Source of the DNA: a plasmid
Length of the DNA: 27,292 nucleotides
Sequence record: NZ_CP084927.1
Reading direction: 5' to 3' (one strand)
In this document: one piece after another, positions 3,683-27,292 of the stretch
Layout of the letters: the number at the start of each line of letters is the position of its first letter
Numbering within the stretch: the stretch's first letter is position 1
Notes under the pieces: generated by a model
Told to the model about the DNA's origin: nothing
What the model saw: the letters and a program-made list of their open reading frames with translations, nothing else
Database searches by the model: none
Made by a program: the position numbers and the translations under genes

Positions 3683-4168
3683 TTATGTTATTGATTTTAA
3701 ATTTTTTATATCAAAATGGTCTTTTTCTGTTAAATCATAACCAGAATGAAAAAGAAGTTGAGCTTCTTTTGAAATACATGGTATTTTTCGACCTTTGTAA
3801 TTAGTTTCTGAAAACCAGTCATTTTGGAAAACATAATTACCACCTTCTGGGTTTGCTTGGGTAATTGATCCATCATCATTTAGATTTATAGGATGAATAT
3901 CTAAATACCCATATTCTTCATGCTTAAGTTCCATACGTGAAGGCATCCAATCAACTTCTATTTTATATCCGATATCTTCTAATTTTTGTATAACTTTTTG
4001 AGTGTGTTGAGCGTCAAAATCTATATCTATATCTCTGTGTTCTCTTTGTTGTTTTCCAGTTAATACATCTACCCCCCAGCCACCATCTAACCAATAAGTT
4101 ACTTTCATGTGTTCAAATAAATCTAAAATATAAAATAAATCTTTTTCTGTTACATTATTATTTTTCAT
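3683..4168 (-). CDS. lnu(A): Lincosamide nucleotidyltransferase Lnu(A).
   Basis: 161 aa (MKNNNVTEKDLFYILDLFEHMKVTYWLDGGWGVDVL...) matching LinA/Lnu(A). SD aggaggg. Confidence 0.95.
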   Translation of the reverse strand: MKNNNVTEKDLFYILDLFEHMKVTYWLDGGWGVDVLTGKQQREHRDIDIDFDAQHTQKVIQKLEDIGYKIEVDWMPSRMELKHEEYGYLDIHPINLNDDGSITQANPEGGNYVFQNDWFSETNYKGRKIPCISKEAQLLFHSGYDLTEKDHFDIKNLKSIT

Positions 4169-4499: not shown

Positions 4500-4647
4500 G
4501 ATATAAAGGCATTTCTTTTCCTCTAATGTAATATAATGTATTACAATGTATTCTATAAATGTATCTTATTAAAGGCTGAATAAAATAAAAATTTCAAAAA
4601 AAGAAAAAAACACACTAAATAAATTCTTAAAATATTTTCTATTGTTT
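4500..4647 (-). pseudogene. Degenerate copy of the promoter and first ~20 codons of the Rep_trans gene (copy P3).
   Basis: The reverse complement of 4500-4560 aligns with atgtatacattctattacattaggga..., the 5' end of ORF 21075-22169. No downstream ORF. Confidence 0.5.
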
Positions 4648-4744
4648 AGCTAGACTAAAATTGCAGTTCTAGCAAATTGTGGTTCAGAAAGACACTGGGT
4701 CGCTCCGCTTATGCTATAACTCTAGTTAATCTACAACCATGCAA
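4648..4744 (+). repeat. Repeat B, copy 1 (~95 bp, contains an internal inverted repeat agttctagcaaa/tttgctagaact).
   Basis: Near-identical copies at 22266-22359 (direct) and 7363-7454 (inverted). Confidence 0.8.
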
Positions 4745-4762
4745 ATATAGACAAAACATGCT

Positions 4763-4838
4763 ATAATCATAGTGAAAAGATCAAAGTTACAAACAAAAAG
4801 CCCCCTAGATATTTGCGGTATCTAGGGGGTTATTTTGT
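4763..4838 (+). ncRNA. Candidate RNA II-like antitoxin sRNA of a par(pAD1)-type locus.
   Basis: Extended -10 tgctataat at 4754-4762. It runs into the bidirectional terminator at 4797-4838. It contains the direct repeat gatcaaagttacaaaca, whose second copy (4978-4994) overlaps the toxin start. Confidence 0.4.
4797..4838. terminator. Bidirectional intrinsic terminator shared by the convergent toxin mRNA and antitoxin RNA.
   Basis: Stem ccccctagata/tatctaggggg, with an A-run 5' and a T-run 3'. Confidence 0.6.
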
Positions 4839-4913
4839 TATTTCAGTCGCTGCCATTACTTAATCTAACAATAATGAGTCACAAACTGTTTTCAGGCTAA
4901 TTGTCTAACAAAG

Positions 4914-4997
4914 TTATCTATCTAGCCATTTGCAAATGTAATAGGCTATCACACCTGCTACGATAGATAAAAGAAAATTGATCAAAGTTGCAAACAT
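4914..4997 (-). CDS. Fst/Ldr-family type I toxin, 27 aa: MFATLINFLLSIVAGVIAYYICKWLDR.
   Basis: Single transmembrane segment followed by a WL(D/R) tail, typical of Fst-like toxins. SD aaggggg. Promoter with extended -10 tgctataat on the minus strand at 5063-5071. Confidence 0.55.
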   Translation of the reverse strand: MFATLINFLLSIVAGVIAYYICKWLDR

Positions 4998-5095
4998 TAA
5001 ATCGCCCCCTTTATTGTTGCAAGGACGATTTAGGCAGCAATTAACCGCCTTATTAGCTCAGACAACCTAAAAATTATAGCATAAGTGCTGACAAA

Positions 5096-5335
5096 TACAT
5101 TCTAAGCAAGCGTTCAAGTTGAATTTGGGTTATTATTCATGAAATCAACCGAGAAAACACCTTAGAAACCTTGATTTAATAGCTTTTTTAGCTGATTTAT
5201 GCTATAATTACTCCTGTAGTGATTAATGATCTACTTTGAAATCACTACATCATAACCACGTAAAAAAGATAGAGCCGATTATATTAATCGGCTCTATTTG
5301 CTATCTAAAATCAATTATAAGACATTTTAAATCAT
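5096..5335 (+). repeat. Repeat A, copy 1 (~240 bp). Contains a hairpin terminator (agagccgatta...taatcggctct) and an extended -10 promoter-like tgctataat.
   Basis: Inverted copy at 6700-6952. Partial direct copy at 22727-22830. A short piece (aaaccttgatttaataagctttttttt) lies next to the theta origin at 9398-9428. Confidence 0.75.
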
Positions 5336-6699
5336 TTCAAGTGTAATTATATTAAAAAGGGATAAAACGTCTAAAACACCCATTAAATTAGATTTAAACC
5401 ATATGTATTAATTTAATTAGTTAGCTATCACTTTAAATGCACTAATTTTATATAGCAGATAATACTTCTGCTGCCGAGACGGAAAAAATTATTTTTCTTT
5501 GGAATAACGAAGTAAAAAATTATGTGAACTGGATACAGTAATTTTTAAGAGCTTGAAAATAAGCTCTTTTTTATTTTTTGAAAAACGAAACAAAAGAAGC
5601 AAAACTACAAAATCATTTAGCTAAGTTGTAAAACGAAGCTCTGCATTCTGTACAACTAAGCTAAAGAGCATAAGTGAGAATGGTCATCCGTAGGCGGATG
5701 AGCCGACAGTGTCGGCATTCTCTCAATGACCAAATTTTCTCGCTTGTTACACAGCTATTTAACACTTGTTTTACAACTAATTTACACTTTGTTTTACGCT
5801 TATTTTACGTAAAACATTTGTTAAACATTTTTAAAATGCTATAAAAAATAGCCATCATATTTGTGACGACCAAATTTTTTTAATGTTTTTTGAGGAGCTT
5901 AGTTTTTTAAGCTCTTTTTTTATTTTTATAATATTTATATAGCAGAGAAAATTTTTCTTCCAGTTATTTTTCGTAAGAAAAAAGGAAACTGGAAGAAAAA
6001 TAATTGTAAGACGTTTGTCCCACAAAAAATAAATTTTAGTTTTTGAAAAGTGATACAAATGTGGCACGTGATATAAGTGTGCTACAAGTTGTGTTACAAC
6101 TGTGTTGTATTAGTTAGTATAGTGTGTTACACACGAGAAAATTAAGTCCCTAAGAAAACGCCGATACTATCGGCTCCCACGCACCTGTGGGACCATTTTC
6201 TCTTATGCTCTTTAACTCTGTACTCCAGTTTAGAAGATGCGAAAATTTTATTCTCAAAATTCGTTAAGTGGGTTTGAAGATTTTTTTCTTTGTTTAATTT
6301 TTTTGAAAAAGAAAAATTGAATTTAAGAAATTTTTTTGGCTCAAAATTAAATTTAAAAATCGAAAATCAAAAATAATATTAGTTCGGCAAAAATAAAAAC
6401 CTTAGAAGAAGAAAATAAATCATTACGTGATGAATTACAATTTTTCAAAAATTATGCTCAAAGATGGAATGTTAATGGGGAAAATGTAACTAAAATTATC
6501 TCTAAAGCTTATCTAAATAATAATAATAATGATTAAGAATAATTTATAGTATTTTAAAAAATATAAAATTAATATAAATAAAAAACCGTACAAAGGTACC
6601 TATGGCTTTTTTTATCTTTTTTCTGTATATAACTTTAAACCAAAATTAAGGGGGTTATTTGACGTTTTACAGCCTTTGAATAAATTACACTCAGAATGA

Positions 6700-6952
6700 T
6701 TTAAAATGCCTTAAAATTGATTTTAGATAGCAAATAGAGCCGATTAAATTAATCGACTCTATCTTTTTTTACGTGGTTATGATGTAGTAATTTCAGAGTA
6801 GATCATTAATTACTACAAGTTTAATTGTACCATAAATCAGCTAGAAAAGCTATTAAATCAGGGTTTCTAAGGCGTGATCTTTACTAATTTAATGAGTTAC
6901 TGCCTTATTTGGACTTGAAGTCATGCTTAGAATGCGTCTGACAGCACGAAAA
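6700..6952 (-). repeat. Repeat A, copy 2 (inverted).
   Basis: Aligns with the reverse complement of 5096-5335. It shares gtcagacgcattctaagca...caagt and gccttagaaaccYtgatttaatagctttt with copy 3. Confidence 0.75.
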
Positions 6953-7137
6953 AAGGCGGTATCCAAACCGCCCAAGCTAACACCGATGTTCAATAACTAG
7001 AGTGACTAATTCTAGTCTTCTGTGTTCAGCGCTATTTATACTCATTACACACTTATTATAACATTTTTTTTGTTATAATGCTATTTGTGTTCAGCAAGGT
7101 TTGACTAACCTTAGCGACACGAAAGGAGGAATCCTCC

Positions 7138-7281
7138 GTGAAGTTCGTTATTATACTCATTATCGTGCCTAACAAGCACGTAAAACGTTTTGCTAAGCTA
7201 GTAGCTCTCGCAGTTATTAGAACTGGTAAAATTGCAATTAAAAAGGCTATTGAACGCTTGGTTAGTTGGCTTAATGATTAA
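7138..7281 (+). CDS. 47-aa small cationic membrane peptide (VKFVIILIIVPNKHVKRFAKLVALAVIRTGKIAIKKAIERLVSWLND) with a GTG start. Candidate type I toxin.
   Basis: The SD ggagg lies inside a perfect hairpin ggaggaatcctcc. A paralog lies at 22443-22541 with a conserved N-terminus KIFVVIFLVPNKHVK. An intrinsic terminator follows at 7317-7352. Confidence 0.4.
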   Translation: MKFVIILIIVPNKHVKRFAKLVALAVIRTGKIAIKKAIERLVSWLND

Positions 7282-7362
7282 GTTCTGATAGTTGGTTACC
7301 AACGGAAGATAGTCATTTCAGCGGTTCTCTTTGAGAGTCGCTGTTTTTTTTGCTTTAAATAG

Positions 7363-7454
7363 CATGGTTGTAGATTATCTTGAGTTTTAGCATAAGCGGA
7401 GCGACCCAATGTCTTGCTGAACCACAATTTGCTAGAACTGCAAGTTTAGTCTAG
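7363..7454 (-). repeat. Repeat B, copy 2 (inverted).
   Basis: The reverse complement aligns with B1 and B3. Confidence 0.8.
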
Positions 7455-7620
7455 TTAAAAAATAGAGAAATTATTTTAGTAATTAAGTTGATGAGCTTTA
7501 TAAGTTTTTTTATTTTATTTTATTTTTTTATTTGCATGCGCCTTAAAAAGATACATTTATATGTATACATTCTATTACATTAGGGAGGAAAGAAATACCT
7601 TTATATCAACGTTTATAGCA
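7455..7620 (+). pseudogene. Second degenerate copy of the Rep_trans promoter and 5' end (copy P2). It reads MYTFYYIREERNTFISTFIAL then stops.
   Basis: 7561 atgtatacattctattacattagggagg... equals the first 11 codons of the 22169 ORF, then diverges to a stop. Confidence 0.55.
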
Positions 7621-7867
7621 CTTTAAAATATAAAAAAGTACGTTAACTATATATTGTTATCTATTATATACCTTTTTATATATTTTATGTTATTATAGAC
7701 TATATAAAAAACTACGTATTAAAATTTGAGGTGTTTTTATGGGAGTAATGAATAGTCAGTTCTATCTAGAAATATAACTGTTAGTTCAAATATTGATTTC
7801 ATAAAAATACCCCTATCTTTAATTTGATAGGAGTATTATCACATATTTTTAATGGCAAAGGTAGTTT

Positions 7868-9076
7868 TTAGTCACTAGTATCTTTATTAATCTTCTCAAG
7901 TAGTTCATCTATCTCTTTACTTCTTTGTATTCCTTTCTCTGTCAGGATATTTTTTTGAGCAGTATCATCCTTAGCCCAATCAGGTAATTTTTCTTTCTGT
8001 TTGAGCTTACTCTTATCTCTTTTGGCATATTTACCCTTATTCTTTTCAAAGTCGTCTAGAGCCTTTATTAGATACTTATCTAGTTCATTTGGCTTGGAGT
8101 TCATATGATCCTTAACGTACTTCAAATGTTTTTGTAGGTCATCTAATGAGTGTTTATTTACGAATACATCATACTTAGGATATACATTTTCCCCTAAGCT
8201 CATCATCAGCGATTCATTATTTGCATCTGCGAAATTTACTATCATTGCTCCAAGTAATAACGCTGTATATGGCGAATTTTGGACGTCTGATAGCGATAAT
8301 TTCTTCTCAGCTGTAAGTTCCCCTATTAGCTTTTCTGTTGAATTATTGGATATATGGAACTGAATCTTTGCTATCTTTCTGCCGACCCTAATAGTATCGT
8401 ATGTAATGTTAAATTCAGTATGCTCGTTAATTTCTTTTATTGCTGGTTCAATTACTCGCTTTTTTAAGTCTGAGAAACGATCATAGCTCTTTTTACCTTG
8501 TACTGTCAGTGCTTTTAACTCAGAAACGTCAATAACTGGATTTAAAAAACTCTCTAGCTCTTCTTTAGTTCTTTTCCCATTAGCTATATAGTTAGTATAT
8601 TGGTTATAGTACATCATCAATACCTTGTATATAGTGATTGTATTAGATGACGTAAAGTGCCTTAAATCTTCAATTCTGTACTGTGTAAAGTTCTTCTTCA
8701 ACTCCGTTATATACGGCATTATTTTATTAGAAAATGATAATTTAACCGTTGATTCATCTTCACTGAACTCAATTTTTGAAAATGGTGCAAAGATTTCTGT
8801 CTTTTTCTTTCCGTTCTCTTTAGTGTACTTTACTGTAAATGTACTTTTATCCATTAAGTTTGTCATAATTGTCTGTAGATAATCGTGTCGTAAAGCATTA
8901 GTTCTCGGCAAAAATGTCCTAATCAAGTCTTTTTCAAGCTCGACTTCTGGATCTTTTTCTTTTGTGTCTACATTAGCTACTGCCAGTTCAAACAGTTTTA
9001 AAGGTAGTGCATCCATTTTAGCAATAGCCTTAATTAAAGTATTACTTTGGACGACTTTTTTATTTTGTAAGTCCAT
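7868..9076 (-). CDS. repB: Theta-replication initiator, Rep_3 family (RepB-like, pCI305/pWV02-type).
   Basis: 402 aa with Rep_3-like architecture. Gene sits immediately downstream of the iteron array and A+T-rich region, the canonical lactococcal-type theta replicon arrangement. Confidence 0.85.
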   Translation of the reverse strand: MDLQNKKVVQSNTLIKAIAKMDALPLKLFELAVANVDTKEKDPEVELEKDLIRTFLPRTNALRHDYLQTIMTNLMDKSTFTVKYTKENGKKKTEIFAPFSKIEFSEDESTVKLSFSNKIMPYITELKKNFTQYRIEDLRHFTSSNTITIYKVLMMYYNQYTNYIANGKRTKEELESFLNPVIDVSELKALTVQGKKSYDRFSDLKKRVIEPAIKEINEHTEFNITYDTIRVGRKIAKIQFHISNNSTEKLIGELTAEKKLSLSDVQNSPYTALLLGAMIVNFADANNESLMMSLGENVYPKYDVFVNKHSLDDLQKHLKYVKDHMNSKPNELDKYLIKALDDFEKNKGKYAKRDKSKLKQKEKLPDWAKDDTAQKNILTEKGIQRSKEIDELLEKINKDTSD

Positions 9077-17400: not shown

Positions 17401-18627
17401 GTGAGAAGATTGAGAAAGGATATTACTCAATTATTAAAAGCTAGTACAACAACGCTTATAAACGCAATGGGTGCAACTATTTTTGTATATTCACTCTCAT
17501 TAAAACTACTAGAAACTACCGGATCTGCATTAGGTTACGGGGTAAATATTTTTATAGGTCCAATTGTAGGTTTGATCTGCTCTCCATTAATAGGTAAAGT
17601 TATCGATAAATATTCAAAAAAAAATATTGCTATTTTATCTGAATGTAGTTTGGTAATTATTTTAATTTTATTTGCAGTAGCTTTCCCATATATACAGAAA
17701 AATTTATTTATTTATTCAATTATCTTTGTATGTCTAGATAATATTTGTGCTAGATTTTTTACAATATCATATTTATCGTCTGCACCAGATATAGTTAGTA
17801 AAGATCAGTTACAACGATTAAATGCCATTCAAACTACTGGAGTTGCAGTAGCTAATATGCTCGCTCTACCGATAGCAGGTTTTATATATGGAATACTGCC
17901 ATTTGAGTATATAATAATTATAGAAATATTTGCTGAAGTACTAACAATACTTTTAACAATAATAACTGAATTTAAAGCAGAAAAGAAATTAGTGAAGGCT
18001 AAAGCTCATAATAATGTTGGTGGATTGAAGATTCTATTTAAGTATAAAAAAGTTTTAGAACTAGTAATAATTGCAATGATTTTGAATTTTTCAATAACTT
18101 CAATTGAGATTGGTATTCCATATACAATTATCCATGTTTTGAAAAAGACATCAGTTGTAAGTGGGAATATTCAAAGTTTATTCTCCATGGGTGTAATTGT
18201 AGGAGGAATATTAATTTCTGCTATTAAATTAAAAAATGTATTGGCCTTCACTCAAAGAATATATACATTATTTACGTGGCTTCTACTAGCTTTTGGAATC
18301 TCATTATATGTATTTACAAAATATACTTTAATAATTTTCATCATATTTGAATTATTACTAGGTATCTTAACAGCAATTGCTGATCCACCATTATTTACAT
18401 ACATTCAAGAAGAAATTCCAAAAGACTATCTAGGAAGAATTAATACTTTTATATATACAATAGTCCAATTACTAACACCAATAGGAGTAGCCGTATATAG
18501 TACGTGTTTTTCTTTTACTAACTATGCTAATGTATATCTCATTAGTGGTGTAATTATCGTAATTTCAATCTCTATAATTAAATATATCCTTGGTAAACGA
18601 TTAATTAATGATTCATCAAGCATATAA
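17401..18627 (+). CDS. MFS transporter with 12 predicted transmembrane segments. Probable exporter or self-immunity pump of the operon.
   Basis: 408 aa, uniformly hydrophobic in 12 segments. MFS motif-like GKVIDKYSKKN after TM2. 4 nt after the previous gene. Confidence 0.8.
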   Translation: MRRLRKDITQLLKASTTTLINAMGATIFVYSLSLKLLETTGSALGYGVNIFIGPIVGLICSPLIGKVIDKYSKKNIAILSECSLVIILILFAVAFPYIQKNLFIYSIIFVCLDNICARFFTISYLSSAPDIVSKDQLQRLNAIQTTGVAVANMLALPIAGFIYGILPFEYIIIIEIFAEVLTILLTIITEFKAEKKLVKAKAHNNVGGLKILFKYKKVLELVIIAMILNFSITSIEIGIPYTIIHVLKKTSVVSGNIQSLFSMGVIVGGILISAIKLKNVLAFTQRIYTLFTWLLLAFGISLYVFTKYTLIIFIIFELLLGILTAIADPPLFTYIQEEIPKDYLGRINTFIYTIVQLLTPIGVAVYSTCFSFTNYANVYLISGVIIVISISIIKYILGKRLINDSSSI

Positions 18628-23741: not shown

Positions 23742-23917
23742 TTAAGTGACTATTTAAAAGGAGTTAATAAATATGCGGCAAGGTATTCTTAAATAAACTG
23801 TCAATTTGATAGCGGGAAAAAATAATTAGATGTCCTTTTTTAGGAGGGCTTAGTTTTTTGTACCCAGTTTAAGAATACCTTTATCATGTGATTCTAAAGT
23901 ATCCAGAGAATATCTGT

Positions 23918-24004
23918 ATGCTTTGTATACCTATGGTTATGCATAAAAATCCCAGTGATAAAAGTATTTATCACTGGGATTTTTATGCCCTTTTGGGTTT
24001 TTGA
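23918..24004 (+). CDS. tet(M) leader peptide (Tn916 orf12, MLCIPMVMHKNPSDKSIYHWDFYALLGF) with an embedded attenuator hairpin.
   Basis: 28 codons. Terminator-like aaaatcccagtgata...tatcactgggattttt at 23946-23990 lies inside the leader. This is the classic transcriptional attenuation arrangement. Confidence 0.75.
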   Translation: MLCIPMVMHKNPSDKSIYHWDFYALLGF

Positions 24005-24019
24005 ATGGAGGAAAATCAC

Positions 24020-25945
24020 ATGAAAATTATTAATATTGGAGTTTTAGCTCATGTTGATGCAGGAAAAACTACCTTAACAGAAAGCTTATTATATAACAGT
24101 GGAGCGATTACAGAATTAGGAAGCGTGGACAAAGGTACAACGAGGACGGATAATACGCTTTTAGAACGTCAGAGAGGAATTACAATTCAGACAGGAATAA
24201 CCTCTTTTCAGTGGGAAAATACGAAGGTGAACATCATAGACACGCCAGGACATATGGATTTCTTAGCAGAAGTATATCGTTCATTATCAGTTTTAGATGG
24301 GGCAATTCTACTGATTTCTGCAAAAGATGGCGTACAAGCACAAACTCGTATATTATTTCATGCACTTAGGAAAATGGGGATTCCCACAATCTTTTTTATC
24401 AATAAGATTGACCAAAATGGAATTGATTTATCAACGGTTTATCAGGATATTAAAGAGAAACTTTCTGCCGAAATTGTAATCAAACAGAAGGTAGAACTGT
24501 ATCCTAATATATGTGTGACGAACTTTACCGAATCTGAACAATGGGATACGGTAATAGAGGGAAACGATGACCTTTTAGAGAAATATATGTCCGGTAAATC
24601 ATTAGAAGCATTGGAACTCGAACAAGAGGAAAGCATAAGATTTCATAATTGTTCCCTGTTCCCTGTTTATCACGGAAGTGCAAAAAAAAATATAGGGATT
24701 GATAACCTTATAGAAGTGATTACGAATAAATTTTATTCATCAACACATCGAGGTCCGTCTGAACTTTGCGGAAATGTTTTCAAAATTGAATATACAAAAA
24801 AAAGACAACGTCTTGCATATATACGCCTTTATAGTGGAGTACTACATTTACGAGATTCGGTTAGAGTATCAGAATCAGAAAAAGAAAAAATAAAAGTTAC
24901 AGAAATGTATACTTCAATAAATGGTGAATTATGTAAGATTGATAGAGCTTATTCTGGAGAAATTGTTATTTTGCAAAATGAGTTTTTGAAGTTAAATAGT
25001 GTTCTTGGAGATACAAAACTATTGCCACAGAGAAAAAAGATTGAAAATCCGCACCCTCTACTACAAACAACTGTTGAACCGAGTAAACCTGAACAGAGAG
25101 AAATGTTGCTTGATGCCCTTTTGGAAATCTCAGATAGTGATCCGCTTCTACGATATTACGTGGATTCTACGACACATGAAATTATACTTTCTTTCTTAGG
25201 GAAAGTACAAATGGAAGTGACTTGTGCTCTATTGCAAGAAAAGTATCATGTGGAGGTAAAAATAAAAAAGCCTACAGTCATTTATATGGAAAGACCGTTA
25301 AAAAAAGCAGAGTATACCATTCACATCGAAGTGCCACCGAATCCCTTCTGGGCTTCCATTGGTCTTTCTGTAGCACCGCTTCCATTAGGGAGCGGAGTAC
25401 AGTATGAGAGCTCGGTTTCTCTTGGATACTTAAATCAATCGTTTCAAAATGCAGTTATGGAAGGGATACGATATGGCTGTGAACAAGGATTGTATGGTTG
25501 GAATGTGACGGACTGTAAAATCTGTTTTAAGTATGGCTTATACTATAGCCCTGTTAGTACCCCAGCAGATTTTCGGATGCTTGCTCCTATTGTATTGGAA
25601 CAAGTCTTAAAAAAAGCTGGAACAGAATTGTTAGAGCCATATCTTAGTTTTAAAATTTATGCGCCACAGGAATATCTTTCACGAGCATACAACGATGCTC
25701 CTAAATATTGTGCGAACATCGTAGACACTCAATTGAAAAATAATGAGGTCATTCTTAGTGGAGAAATCCCTGCTCGGTGTATTCAAGAATATCGTAGTGA
25801 TTTAACTTTCTTTACAAATGGACGTAGTGTTTGTTTAACAGAGTTAAAAGGGTACCATGTTACTACCGGTGAACCTGTTTGCCAGCCCCGTCGTCCAAAT
25901 AGTCGGATAGATAAAGTACGATATATGTTCAATAAAATAACTTAG
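24020..25945 (+). CDS. tet(M): Ribosomal protection protein Tet(M).
   Basis: 641 aa from [24 protein letters not shown]..., an EF-G-like GTPase matching Tet(M) along its length. SD ggagg. The ORF-track start 24005 overlaps the leader stop and is rejected. Confidence 0.95.
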
Positions 25946-26138: not shown

Positions 26139-27292
26139 ATGAATACATCCTATTCACAATCGAATTTACGACACAACCAAATTTTAATTTGGCTTTGCAT
26201 TTTATCTTTTTTTAGCGTATTAAATGAAATGGTTTTGAACGTCTCATTACCTGATATTGCAAATGATTTTAATAAACCACCTGCGAGTACAAACTGGGTG
26301 AACACAGCCTTTATGTTAACCTTTTCCATTGGAACAGCTGTATATGGAAAGCTATCTGATCAATTAGGCATCAAAAGGTTACTCCTATTTGGAATTATAA
26401 TAAATTGTTTCGGGGCGTTAATTGGGTTTGTTGGCCATTCTTTCTTTTCCTTACTTATTATGGCTCGTTTTATTCAAGGGGCTGGTGCAGCTGCATTTCC
26501 AGCACTCGTAATGGTTGTAGTTGCGCGCTATATTCCAAAGGAAAATAGGGGTAAAGCATTTGGTCTTATTGGATCGATAGTAGCCATGGGAGAAGGAGTC
26601 GGTCCAGCGATTGGTGGAATGATAGCCCATTATATTCATTGGTCCTATCTTCTACTCATTCCTATGATAACAATTATCACTGTTCCGTTTCTTATGAAAT
26701 TATTAAAGAAAGAAGTAAGGATAAAAGGTCATTTTGATATCAAAGGAATTATACTAATGTCTGTAGGCATTGTATTTTTTATGTTGTTTACAACATCATA
26801 TAGCATTTCTTTTCTTATCGTTAGCGTGCTGTCATTCCTGATATTTGTAAAACATATCAGGAAAGTAACAGATCCTTTTGTTGATCCCGGATTAGGGAAA
26901 AATATACCTTTTATGATTGGAGTTCTTTGTGGGGGAATTATATTTGGAACAGTAGCAGGGTTTGTCTCTATGGTTCCTTATATGATGAAAGATGTTTACC
27001 AGCTAAGTACTGCCGAAATCGGAAGTGTAATTATTTCCCCTGGAACAATGAGTGTCATTATTTTCGGCTACATTGGTGGGATACTTGTTGATAGAAGAGG
27101 TCCTTTATACGTGTTAAACATCGGAGTTACATTTATTTCTGTTAGCTTTTTAACTGCTTCCTTTCTTTTAGAAACAACATCATGGTTCATGACAATTATA
27201 ATCGTATTTGTTTTAGGTGGGCTTTCGTTCACCAAAACAGTTATATCAACAATTGTTTCAAGTAGCTTGAAACAGCAGGAAGCTGGTGCTGG
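26139..27292 (+). CDS. tet(L): Tetracycline efflux MFS transporter Tet(L), N-terminal 384 codons. It continues at 1..223.
   Basis: [44 protein letters not shown]... is diagnostic of Tet(L). SD ggagg. The ORF is open to the window end. Confidence 0.95.

What the first reader, a model, noticed from the sequence alone, without database searches (positions are those of the whole stretch)
4750..5072. par(pAD1)-like Fst type I toxin-antitoxin locus with direct repeats and shared bidirectional terminator
Seen directly: a minus-strand 27-aa ORF (MFATLINFLLSIVAGVIAYYICKWLDR) has SD aaggggg and an extended -10 promoter (tgctataat) at 5063-5071. There is a convergent plus-strand extended -10 (tgctataat, 4754-4762). 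A perfect 11-bp stem terminator flanked by A- and T-runs lies at 4797-4838 between them. The 17-bp direct repeat gatcaaagttRcaaaca occurs at 4779-4795 (inside the putative sRNA) and at 4978-4994, overlapping the toxin initiation codon. That is the RNA I / RNA II / DRa-DRb geometry of the Enterococcus par locus.

It is not in the ORF track because it is under 60 aa. It is a plausible stabilisation module for this replicon.
Basis: partly seen in the sequence, partly recalled or inferred. Interest (0 to 1): 0.6.

Follow-up and report, generated by a model that had tools for sequence, protein, structure and literature searches.

The report
par-like type I toxin-antitoxin module
A Ligilactobacillus salivarius resistance plasmid carries an unannotated 27-residue membrane toxin gene and a convergent small antisense RNA, laid out like the Enterococcus par/Fst system; this is an ordinary member of a very large, under-annotated clade of that known kind.

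Summary
The 27-aa ORF is at 4914-4997(-). Convergent TGCTATAAT promoters lie at 4759-4767(+) and 5073-5081(-). There is an 11-bp bidirectional terminator (4801-4829). A 17-nt direct repeat (4779-4795 and 4980-4996) overlaps the start codon; a repeat this good arose in 3 of 500 shuffles.

The par-like interpretation is supported. The peptide belongs to a large YYICKWLD clade: 489 plasmid records, at least 551 genome loci and 2381 protein clusters. Across 77 non-redundant relatives the same layout recurs. The repeat sequence differs between loci, but the two copies within each locus match each other.

The predicted 66-nt sRNA tail pairs across the SD, the AUG and codons 1-8 (-27 kcal/mol, z -7.2). 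The SD is also sequestered in a 5' stem-loop.

Curated Fst HMMs do not detect the peptide. The link to Fst runs through Rfam RF02442 (SpF66), which is the mRNA of the S. pneumoniae Fst-A toxin; its twin Fst-B was experimentally validated by Fozo et al. 2010. Close relatives of the window locus match that model above threshold.

Verdict: a new member of a known kind. Toxicity and plasmid stabilisation are inferred, not shown.

The parts
4759..4767 (+). Antitoxin sRNA promoter, extended -10 TGCTATAAT. The -35 is weak. A 79%-identical tandem copy of the promoter segment lies at 4711-4729.
   Evidence: (D3). In 50 of 66 related loci with a clear repeat, a TGnTAnnnT lies on the opposite strand 6-12 nt beyond the second repeat copy (one outlier each at 2 and 19 nt); chance is 0.10.
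4774..4839 (+). Predicted antitoxin sRNA (RNA II-like), about 66 nt. It has a single-stranded 5' tail followed by the terminator hairpin. The ends are predicted, not mapped.
   Evidence: Fold: the first ~18 nt of the tail are unpaired and the hairpin has -27.4 kcal/mol. The size matches the 65-75 nt antisense RNA seen for S. pneumoniae fst-B (PMC2887945).
4779..4795 (+). Direct repeat copy 1, GATCAAAGTTACAAACA, inside the sRNA 5' tail.
   Evidence: (D2).
4795..4839 (.). Shared bidirectional intrinsic terminator: A-run, 11-bp perfect stem 4801-4811/4819-4829, loop 4812-4818, T-run. It forms the roughly 49-nt perfectly complementary 3' overlap of the two RNAs.
   Evidence: One search finds a terminator on both strands. 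One search gives the duplex. 60 of 66 related loci have a strong hairpin (median 13 bp) at this position.
4830..4913 (-). Toxin mRNA 3' UTR (84 nt). It is longer than in most relatives.
   Evidence: In the window the second repeat copy starts 108 nt after the stop codon; the family median is 72 nt.
4914..4997 (-). Toxin ORF, 27 aa: MFATLINFLLSIVAGVIAYYICKWLDR. It forms one hydrophobic helix and carries the S11-xxx-G15 motif, W24 and the K23/D26/R27 end.
   Evidence: Family alignments. Residues held fixed across the family are encoded by 2-6 synonymous codons.
4972..5011 (-). sRNA target on the toxin mRNA. It comprises the 3' part of the SD, the AUG and codons 1-8, and includes direct repeat copy 2 (4980-4996).
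   Evidence: RNAduplex gives -27.0 kcal/mol against -11.2 +/- 2.2 for 500 shuffled tails, z -7.2. Gapped repeat alignment.
5005..5011 (-). Shine-Dalgarno AAGGGGG, 7 nt upstream of the AUG.
4998..5032 (-). 5' stem-loop that sequesters the SD. mRNA nt 37-48 (5021-5032) pair with nt 60-71 (4998-5009), forming 12 bp.
   Evidence: full-length and 5'-only folds; z -3.0. In 45 of 61 relatives the SD pairs with an upstream anti-SD.
5016..5066 (-). 5'-terminal helix: GUUGU (5062-5066) pairs with GCAAC (5016-5020) in the loop of the SD stem-loop. It is the counterpart of the par upstream helix. A window-specific inserted hairpin of about 30 nt lies between the two strands.
   Evidence: window, and 47 of 54 loci; compensatory changes in 5 of 6 pairs, 90% of cells paired, 0 of 500 shuffles reach the observed values.
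5073..5081 (-). Toxin mRNA promoter, extended -10 TGCTATAAT with no recognisable -35. The predicted TSS is about 5067-5068 and the mRNA runs about 278 nt to about 4791.
   Evidence: 54 of 66 clear-repeat relatives have TGnTAnnnT upstream of the start codon, usually about 46 nt away; in the window the distance is 75 nt.

Best explanation
This is an intact par-type type I toxin-antitoxin cassette spanning about 4740-5085.

A roughly 278-nt mRNA read leftwards from the extended -10 at 5073-5081 encodes a 27-residue single-helix membrane peptide. A roughly 66-nt sRNA read rightwards from the extended -10 at 4759-4767 converges on it. Both end in the same bidirectional terminator.

The two RNAs are complementary in two places. 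The first is their terminator hairpins, a perfect overlap of about 49 nt. The second arises because a DNA direct repeat is transcribed in opposite senses: the 5' tail of the sRNA is complementary to the SD, AUG and first eight codons of the toxin mRNA.

The nascent mRNA keeps its SD locked in a 5' stem-loop, and its 5' end is tucked into a second helix. Binding of the sRNA then blocks ribosome access for as long as the sRNA is resupplied.

If the plasmid is lost, the shorter-lived sRNA would decay and the peptide would be made, harming the membrane of the plasmid-free cell. That is post-segregational killing, and it would stabilise the lnu(A)-bearing plasmid segment.

What is shown here: the sequence elements, their statistical excess, the predicted pairing, and conservation of the peptide and of the whole layout in relatives. 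What is inferred by analogy with pAD1 par and S. pneumoniae fst-B: transcription of both RNAs, toxicity, the relative half-lives of the RNAs, and the stabilisation phenotype.
For: Elements in the window:
- ORF, SD, promoters, terminator and repeat are all present.
- Pairing of the sRNA tail with the translation-initiation region gives -27 kcal/mol, z -7.2; the SD sits in a 12-bp stem.

Conservation of the peptide:
- 489 plasmid records, at least 551 genome loci and 2381 protein clusters.
- Residues held fixed across the family are encoded by multiple synonymous codons.

Conservation of the layout over 77 non-redundant loci:
- The start-codon region is repeated after the stop codon. The within-locus score has median 32, against a mean of 16.5 between different loci; 65 of 77 exceed the 99th percentile of the between-locus scores, and 68 of 77 repeats cover the start codon.
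- Of the 66 loci with a clear repeat, 60 have a strong hairpin between the stop codon and the second copy.
- 50 have a convergent extended -10 just beyond the second copy, all but two of them 6-12 nt away, and 54 have an extended -10 upstream of the toxin.
- The SD is sequestered in 45 of 61 loci.
- The 5' helix shows compensatory changes.

Link to validated systems:
- Relatives L011, L006, L004 and L005 match Rfam RF02442 SpF66 above its threshold, at 94, 68, 49 and 48 bits against a gathering score of 42. The window scores 20.4 bits with the SD, AUG, CKWLD codons and terminator aligned.
- Its twin Fst-B is toxic and has a 65-75-nt antisense RNA (PMC2887945).
Against: - There are no expression or toxicity data for this locus or for any plasmid member of the clade.
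- Curated Fst models do not recognise the peptide. hhalign against pAD1 Fst gives only 28.7% probability.
- The toxin terminator loop has no YUNR U-turn, and the motif is rare in the family: 10 of 60 toxin-strand loops.
- The charged C-terminus is minimal, ending ...KWLDR.
- The cassette sits among decayed small-plasmid DNA, next to a rep pseudogene, so it could be a passenger.
- The three plasmids that carry it hold it at 99.5-100% identity, which gives no within-species signal of selection.
- 5 of 77 relatives show no clear repeat.
Confidence: 0.85

Rival explanations
1. The components are the same, but the sRNA acts mainly through the perfect overlap of about 49 nt at the 3' ends. That duplex would trigger RNase III-type cleavage and decay of the toxin mRNA, as proposed for TxpA/RatA-type and C. 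difficile modules. The repeat-mediated block of translation would be secondary.
For: The 3' overlap is the strongest predicted duplex (RNAduplex -87 kcal/mol). It is present in nearly all relatives, since the terminator is shared in 60 of 66.
Against: The repeat over the start codon is conserved in position while its sequence varies between loci. That pattern is hard to explain unless pairing at the translation-initiation region is under selection. In pAD1 par the complex is stable rather than degraded (PMC7472228). The two modes are not mutually exclusive.
Confidence: 0.12
2. The cassette is an inactive passenger: a relic of a small rolling-circle plasmid that fused into the RepB plasmid. It would no longer be expressed or would no longer contribute to stability.
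For: It is flanked by lnu(A) (3683-4168) and by a rep pseudogene that is 98.6% identical to the rep of 2.9-kb L. salivarius plasmids. The 5' leader carries a roughly 30-nt insertion and the 3' UTR is longer than the family norm. Only three plasmids in PLSDB carry it.
Against: Every functional element is intact, including both extended -10 boxes, the SD, the ORF, the repeat and the terminator. A toxin gene whose antitoxin still pairs with it shows no sign of decay.
Confidence: 0.1
3. The small ORF and the repeat are coincidental. The region would hold only an unrelated sRNA or terminator, or the peptide would be a harmless membrane protein rather than a toxin.
For: The ORF is only 27 codons long, and hydrophobic short ORFs are common in AT-rich DNA. 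No curated protein family reaches its threshold.
Against: The peptide is conserved in thousands of loci with synonymous codon variation. The RNA layout co-varies with it. A related S. pneumoniae peptide, Fst-B, the near-twin of the CKWLD-motif F66/SPV_2448 product, is toxic when induced. Chance tests for the repeat and the promoters are significant.
Confidence: 0.03

Closest known systems
Streptococcus pneumoniae Fst-A/Fst-B loci (F66/F67, srn502/503, SPV_2448/2450; Rfam RF02442 SpF66)
   Same: The peptide shares the ...CKWLD end. The RF02442 consensus encodes MSLILELVLTIIADVIAGIILYFVCKWLD, and hhalign against the family profile gives 97.4% probability. The toxin mRNA aligns to RF02442 with the SD, AUG, CKWLD codons and terminator in register. 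Plasmid relatives of the window locus pass the Rfam threshold. The S. pneumoniae antisense sRNA is 65-75 nt and lies at the 3' end, and the peptide is toxic in E. coli (PMC2887945).
   Different: The S. pneumoniae loci are chromosomal and tandemly duplicated, and their TM segment is two residues longer. The window scores only 20.4 bits against a gathering score of 42. The window peptide is shorter (27 aa against 32 aa), with almost no charged tail. The window locus is plasmid-borne.
par of Enterococcus faecalis plasmid pAD1 (Fst, RNA I, RNA II)
   Same: Both have convergent promoters, a shared bidirectional terminator, direct repeats transcribed in opposite senses that cover the translation-initiation region, a 5' stem-loop over the SD and a helix holding the 5' end. 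The sRNA is 40-70 nt and the mRNA 230-280 nt, and both loci are plasmid-borne (PMC7472228). In the profile alignment G-G, W-V, L-L and D-D are in register.
   Different: The peptide is not detected by PF13955 or NF033608. It has S-xxx-G where Fst has P-xxx-G. It carries Trp where Fst has Val, and lacks the acidic tail. The toxin-RNA terminator loop has no YUNR U-turn. The repeat is one interrupted block rather than two named repeats.
SprA1/SprA1AS (PepA1) of Staphylococcus aureus and Lpt of Lacticaseibacillus plasmids (Fst/Ldr family)
   Same: These are small single-helix toxins of about 30 aa with a Trp after the TM segment. The antisense RNA is encoded at the 3' end and acts on the 5' translation-initiation region (PMC7472228).
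   Different: The sequence clade is different, with P-xxx-G(C) motifs. These systems were not compared here at sequence level beyond the HMM results.
Clostridioides difficile type I toxins (NCBIfam NF047374 CD_typeI_toxin)
   Same: This is the only curated protein model with any signal: 24.6 bits, E 2.4e-5, covering the TM segment.
   Different: The score is far below the 60-bit cut-off. Only profile positions 1-18 of 51 are matched. The C. difficile toxins are 34-53 aa with lysine-rich tails and lack the YYICKWLD motif (PMC6563280).

Membership tests
par-type type I TA locus (organisation as listed in Weaver 2020, PMC7472228) | Convergent promoters for the toxin mRNA and the antitoxin sRNA | tested here: met
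   TGCTATAAT at 4759-4767(+) and 5073-5081(-). Positionally conserved extended -10 boxes in 50 and 54 of 66 relatives, against chance values of 0.10 and 0.23. These are sequence predictions only.
par-type type I TA locus (organisation as listed in Weaver 2020, PMC7472228) | Shared bidirectional intrinsic terminator giving complementary 3' stem-loops | tested here: met
   An 11-bp perfect stem with an A-run and a T-run, called as a terminator on both strands. 60 of 66 relatives have a strong hairpin there, and 38 of them have both an A-run and a T-run.
par-type type I TA locus (organisation as listed in Weaver 2020, PMC7472228) | DNA direct repeats transcribed in opposite directions, making the sRNA complementary to the toxin translation-initiation region | tested here: met
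   Repeat at 4779-4795 and 4980-4996; 3 of 500 shuffles reach it. Duplex -27 kcal/mol, z -7.2. In 65 of 77 loci the within-locus repeat score exceeds the 99th percentile of between-locus scores, and 68 of 77 repeats cover the start codon.
par-type type I TA locus (organisation as listed in Weaver 2020, PMC7472228) | Intramolecular 5' stem-loop sequestering the SD | tested here: met
   A 12-bp stem pairs mRNA nt 37-48 with nt 60-71. The SD pairs with an upstream anti-SD in 45 of 61 relatives. This is predicted, not probed.
par-type type I TA locus (organisation as listed in Weaver 2020, PMC7472228) | [quoted passage not shown] | tested here: met
   GUUGU (5062-5066) pairs with GCAAC (5016-5020). 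The helix is present in 47 of 54 loci. Compensatory changes occur in 5 of 6 pairs and 0 of 500 shuffles reach the observed values. Its topology, crossing the SD stem, may differ from pAD1.
par-type type I TA locus (organisation as listed in Weaver 2020, PMC7472228) | [quoted passage not shown] | tested here: not met
   The toxin-strand loop is CCGCAAA. Only the sRNA loop UUUGCGG contains UUUG. The motif occurs in 10 of 60 family toxin-strand loops. Weaver 2020 notes that not all par homologues have it.
par-type type I TA locus (organisation as listed in Weaver 2020, PMC7472228) | Toxicity of the peptide, protection by the sRNA, and post-segregational stabilisation | not testable with these tools
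   This needs induction and plasmid-loss experiments.
Fst/Ldr toxin superfamily (signature of Fozo 2010 and Weaver 2020) | Conserved Trp between a predicted TM helix and charged C-terminal residues | tested here: met
   W24 follows the hydrophobic stretch 2-22 and is followed by L-D-R, with K23 before it. W, L and D are invariant in the alignments. The charged cluster is minimal in the window peptide.
Fst/Ldr toxin superfamily (signature of Fozo 2010 and Weaver 2020) | P/D/S/T-xxx-G(C) motif in the TM helix | tested here: met
   S11-I-V-A-G15 in the window peptide. S-xxx-G is common in the clade, but G is replaced by S, E, N or K in many members.
Fst/Ldr toxin superfamily (signature of Fozo 2010 and Weaver 2020) | Recognition by the curated Fst models (Pfam PF13955, NCBIfam NF033608) | tested here: not met
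   No hit at E<=10 for the window peptide or 18 relatives. pAD1 Fst as control scores 34.7 bits on NF033608 (above its 26-bit cut-off) and 22.8 bits on PF13955 (a hit, but below its 36-bit gathering score). hhalign of the family against Fst gives 28.7% probability.
Fst/Ldr toxin superfamily (signature of Fozo 2010 and Weaver 2020) | Demonstrable homology to a member already placed in the family | tested here: met
   Family profile against the RF02442-encoded S. pneumoniae peptide: 97.4% probability. F66 = SPV_2448, annotated 'Fst family' after Fozo 2010. One clade member is named 'Fst family toxin' in UniRef. The S. pneumoniae sequence used here was read from the Rfam consensus, not from a genome.
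Rfam RF02442 SpF66_sRNA | Covariance-model score at or above the gathering score of 42 bits | tested here: not met
   The window scores 20.4 bits, E 0.006, over 4786-5037(-). Relatives L011, L006, L004 and L005 pass at 94, 68, 49 and 48 bits. L007, L008, L003 and L048 score 26-38 bits. The window is therefore a divergent relative, not a scored member.
NCBIfam NF047374 CD_typeI_toxin (C. difficile) | Score at or above the 60-bit cut-off over the whole 51-position profile | tested here: not met
   24.6 bits, with only profile positions 1-18 matched. Relatives score 12-21 bits.

The most novel reading that the evidence does not exclude
The YYICKWLD peptides may form a distinct and very large clade of par-like type I toxin-antitoxin modules. 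It is spread on small plasmids and other elements across gut Bacillota, including Negativicutes, and current annotation pipelines almost entirely miss it.

The clade's conserved 5' leader has two crossing helices. One joins the 5' end to the segment just upstream of the SD. The other joins the anti-SD to the SD. Together they would form an H-type pseudoknot or a two-state switch that times toxin translation. As far as I know, no such feature has been described for pAD1 par.
Probability: 0.3. Interest if true: 0.45.

Novelty: new member of a known kind. Interest (0 to 1): 0.3.

Why it matters
Practical value. None of the three L. salivarius plasmid records listed annotates the cassette. It sits beside lnu(A) on a multiresistance plasmid that also carries cat, tet(M), tet(L) and bcr in related records. 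A working addiction module would help keep such plasmids in livestock-associated lactobacilli without antibiotic selection.

Annotation value. The curated Fst HMMs miss a clade found in at least 551 genome loci and 489 plasmid records. In addition, Rfam RF02442 is filed as an 'sRNA' although it is a toxin mRNA.

Conceptually the locus adds nothing new. It behaves as the par paradigm predicts.

Tried and rejected
I used a family alignment headed by a 42-aa member instead.
- Exact-sequence look-up of six family peptides found none in the protein collection; they are too short for gene callers.
- A search of solved structures with the family profile gave only spurious DARPin hits.
- Full-text search for 'CKWLD' found no relevant paper. 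'SpF66' returned only malaria-vaccine papers.
- The supplements of Fozo 2010 are not held, so I could not read their Fst alignment.
- The local Pfam copy lacks PF28423, which is precomputed on some relatives. Its name is therefore unknown to me.
- Rfam gave no match to any antitoxin family apart from a chance-level ohsC hit (20.4 bits against a gathering score of 50, E 0.8-2). The other weak Rfam hits (His_leader, trpB, rivX, ClpQY) are just the terminator hairpin.
- The MAFFT alignment of the leaders (A3) was not in structural register for the SD/anti-SD helix, because the G and C runs slip. That helix therefore shows little countable covariation.
- I considered that the repeats could be iterons or protein-binding sites. 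I rejected this because their position is fixed relative to the start codon and to a convergent promoter, while their sequence is free to vary.
Full report
SOURCE AND OBSERVATION

The segment 4700-5110 is 99.5-100% identical to three Ligilactobacillus salivarius plasmids (NZ_CP089852.1, NZ_CP101532.1, NZ_CP137610.1). None of them has an annotated feature there.

- The ORF lies at 4914..4997(-) and encodes MFATLINFLLSIVAGVIAYYICKWLDR.
- Its SD AAGGGGG is the reverse complement of 5005-5011.
- TGCTATAAT occurs at 4759-4767(+) and 5073-5081(-).
- The terminator has a perfect 11-bp stem (4801-4811/4819-4829) and is called on both strands.
- The repeat GATCAAAGTTRCAAACA lies at 4779-4795 and 4980-4996, and overlaps the CAT of the start codon.

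These features exceed chance. TGCTATAAT occurs 4 times in the window against 0.66 expected, three of them at this locus. A 17-mer direct repeat with at most 1 mismatch arose in 3 of 500 dinucleotide shuffles of 4600-5350.

THE PEPTIDE

Pfam Fst_toxin (PF13955) and NCBIfam type_I_tox_Fst (NF033608) give no hit at E<=10 for the window peptide or for 18 relatives. pAD1 Fst does hit them: 34.7 bits on NF033608, above its 26-bit cut-off, and 22.8 bits on PF13955, below its 36-bit gathering score. I confirmed that this control sequence is identical to PDB 2KV5. The only curated signal for the window peptide is a sub-threshold match of the TM segment to the C. difficile toxin model NF047374 (24.6 bits, cut-off 60).

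The peptide nevertheless belongs to a large and tightly conserved clade.

- tblastn finds related ORFs in 489 plasmid records: Enterococcus 416, Streptococcus 38, and also Staphylococcus, Aerococcus, Carnobacterium, Clostridium and Lachnospiraceae. Every listed hit lies under no annotated feature.
- A scan of one genome per species with the pattern [ASG][YH]YICKWL returned at least 551 confirmed loci. They come from Lachnospiraceae, Oscillospiraceae, Erysipelotrichaceae, Veillonella, Selenomonas, Megasphaera and others.
- A profile search found 2381 protein clusters. Nearly all are unnamed. One is called 'Type I toxin-antitoxin system Fst family toxin' in UniRef, and a few carry Pfam PF28423, which is absent from the local Pfam copy.

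The family consensus is M..L.SFLLSV.AGV.(A/S)YYICKWLDR plus 0-17 charged residues. The residues held fixed are encoded by 2-6 different codons. One caveat applies: the genome loci were retrieved by that motif, so its invariance among them is partly by construction. The plasmid tblastn hits were not constrained in this way.

The window peptive shows the Fst/Ldr superfamily signature described by Fozo 2010 and Weaver 2020. It has a TM helix, S11-xxx-G15 and W24, followed by charged residues, although here the tail is only D-R.

LINK TO VALIDATED SYSTEMS

Rfam RF02442 'SpF66 sRNA' matches the minus strand at 4786-5037 with 20.4 bits (gathering score 42; E 0.006 when searching only this region). 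The SD, AUG, the UGC-AAA-UGG-CUA-GA codons and the terminator are all aligned.

The model consensus itself translates to MSLILELVLTIIADVIAGIILYFVCKWLD. hhalign of this peptide against the family profile gives 97.4% probability.

Relatives of the window locus pass the Rfam threshold outright: a S. pluranimalium plasmid at 93.8 bits, an E. faecium plasmid at 67.8 bits, and E. faecalis and S. thermophilus plasmids at about 48 bits. Others score 26-38 bits. The window is therefore a divergent end of one continuous RNA family.

[quoted passage not shown] Fozo et al. showed that Fst-B is toxic on induction in E. coli and has a 65-75-nt antisense RNA at its 3' end. They placed these peptides in the Ldr/Fst family (PMC2887945).

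A direct profile comparison with pAD1 Fst is weak (28.7% probability). It is in register, however, at G-G, W-V, L-L and D-D, and Val is the known replacement of the conserved Trp in Fst.

RNA ANATOMY IN THE WINDOW

The predicted sRNA (4774-4839, 66 nt) has an unpaired 5' tail followed by the terminator hairpin.

The predicted mRNA (5068-4791, 278 nt) has a 71-nt leader. In it the SD is held in a 12-bp stem (nt 37-48 with nt 60-71, i.e. 5021-5032 with 4998-5009).

The sRNA tail pairs with mRNA nt 61-97 (5008-4972). That stretch covers the 3' part of the SD, the AUG and codons 1-8. The duplex energy is -27.0 kcal/mol against -11.2 +/- 2.2 for shuffled tails (z -7.2).

The 3' ends overlap perfectly over about 49 nt.

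The toxin-strand terminator loop (CCGCAAA) has no YUNR motif. The sRNA loop (UUUGCGG) does.

COMPARATIVE TEST OF THE LAYOUT

I analysed 13 plasmid loci and then 77 non-redundant loci.

- The region from -40 to +40 around each start codon finds its best or near-best match in that locus's own downstream flank. The within-locus score has median 32. The between-locus score has mean 16.5 and 99th percentile 27. 65 of 77 loci exceed that percentile, and 68 of 77 repeats span the start codon.
- The repeat sequences differ from locus to locus, while the two copies within a locus agree. This is the expected signature of selection for RNA-RNA pairing.
- Many repeats fall into two blocks separated by a 2-3-nt mismatch or indel, reminiscent of DRa/DRb.

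Among the 66 loci with a clear repeat:

- 60 have a strong hairpin (median 13 bp) between the stop codon and the second copy.
- 50 have TGnTAnnnT on the opposite strand just beyond the copy, 48 of them at 6-12 nt (chance 0.10).
- 54 have TGnTAnnnT upstream of the start codon, usually about 46 nt away (chance 0.23).

In 45 of 61 loci the SD is paired with an upstream anti-SD. A second helix joins the 5' end (G[CU]UGUC) to the segment just before the SD (GGCAAC, GGUAG and similar). It appears in 47 of 54 loci and in the window (5062-5066 with 5016-5020). It shows compensatory changes in 5 of 6 pairs. No shuffle out of 500 reached the observed pairing or covariation, and slid controls were much lower.

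This helix encloses the anti-SD and therefore crosses the SD stem. The leader is thus either an H-type pseudoknot or a two-state switch.

The window differs from the family norm in two ways: a roughly 30-nt hairpin is inserted in the leader, and the 3' UTR is longer.

MECHANISM

The best-supported reading is a par-type type I toxin-antitoxin module. The sRNA is supplied continuously, docks on the toxin mRNA and occludes the ribosome-binding region. After plasmid loss the sRNA would disappear first and the membrane peptide would be made.

Only the sequence architecture, its conservation and the predicted pairings are shown here. Transcription, toxicity, RNA half-lives and stabilisation are inferred from pAD1 par (PMC7472228) and S. 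pneumoniae fst-B (PMC2887945).

The rivals are:

- action mainly through the 3' overlap and mRNA decay, which is not exclusive of the main model;
- an inactive passenger within small-plasmid debris;
- coincidence, which the comparative data effectively exclude.

CONTEXT

By comparison with the annotated relative NZ_CP101532.1, the cassette lies between lnu(A) (3683-4168, minus strand) and a decayed copy of the rep gene of 2.9-kb L. salivarius plasmids (5457-6375; 98.6% identity, no long ORF). A RepB replicon gene lies at 7868-9076. Many relatives sit on plasmids of 2.4-7 kb. The module probably arrived with a small rolling-circle plasmid that fused into this resistance plasmid.

VERDICT

This is a new, unannotated member of a known kind, namely a par/Fst-like type I toxin-antitoxin module. 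It belongs to a very large clade that curated protein models miss and that Rfam files as an sRNA. Interest is modest.

Noticed in passing
window 23800-23964 (+): Full-length match to Rfam RF02864 'Enterococcus sRNA 30' (194 bits). It lies immediately upstream of the 646-aa ORF 24005-25945. By comparison with NZ_CP101532.1, that ORF is tet(M) with its leader peptide, so this 'sRNA' is probably the tet(M) 5' leader.
   Followed up: partly
window 4634-4745 (+) and about 7360-7470 (-): A segment of about 110 nt just left of the antitoxin promoter is repeated in inverted orientation downstream of repB. The 24-mer 4691-4714 matches 7390-7413 with 1 mismatch, against 0 expected by chance. Its function is unknown; it may be a recombination joint or a plasmid origin element.
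   Followed up: partly
window 5172-5350: A third TGCTATAAT (5200-5208, +) diverges from the toxin promoter as a perfect 13-nt inverted repeat (5072-5084/5197-5209). It is followed by two strong hairpins (5215-5249 and 5267-5299; fold z -6.9). A minus-strand promoter-like site at 5375-5346 converges on the same bidirectional terminator. The whole stretch is an imperfect palindrome and holds no toxin-like ORF. It may be an sRNA pair or a single-strand origin of the decayed small plasmid.
   Followed up: partly
window 5457-6375: 98.6% identical to the rep gene of 2.9-kb L. salivarius plasmids, but the window has only short ORFs here. This is a rep pseudogene inside a stretch of about 2.5 kb (5300-7868) with no ORF of 80 aa or more.
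   Followed up: partly
window 4711-4729 versus 4758-4776: The antitoxin promoter segment is tandemly duplicated 47 nt upstream (ATGCTATAAC... against ATGCTATAAT..., 79% identity). A longer sRNA isoform is therefore possible (D3).
   Followed up: no
L011, L006, L004, L005 (plasmid relatives); Rfam RF02442: The Rfam family 'SpF66 sRNA' is in fact a toxin mRNA. Its consensus encodes a ...FVCKWLD peptide, and plasmid toxin loci from S. pluranimalium, E. faecium, E. faecalis and S. thermophilus match it above threshold.
   Followed up: yes
L016-L095 and plasmid loci; leader of the toxin mRNA: The family leader has two crossing conserved helices: one joining the 5' end to the pre-SD segment, the other joining the anti-SD to the SD. 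It is either an H-type pseudoknot or a pair of alternative folds.
   Followed up: partly
NZ_CP007649.1 79693-79762 (L. salivarius plasmid): Only the terminator and the start of the 3' UTR (window 4794-4862) match this other plasmid, at 88.6% identity. This may be a second, diverged cassette sharing the terminator (H68).
   Followed up: no
NZ_CP089852.1: This 37-kb plasmid carries two identical copies of the cassette, at about 17700-18060 and 26489-26899.
   Followed up: no
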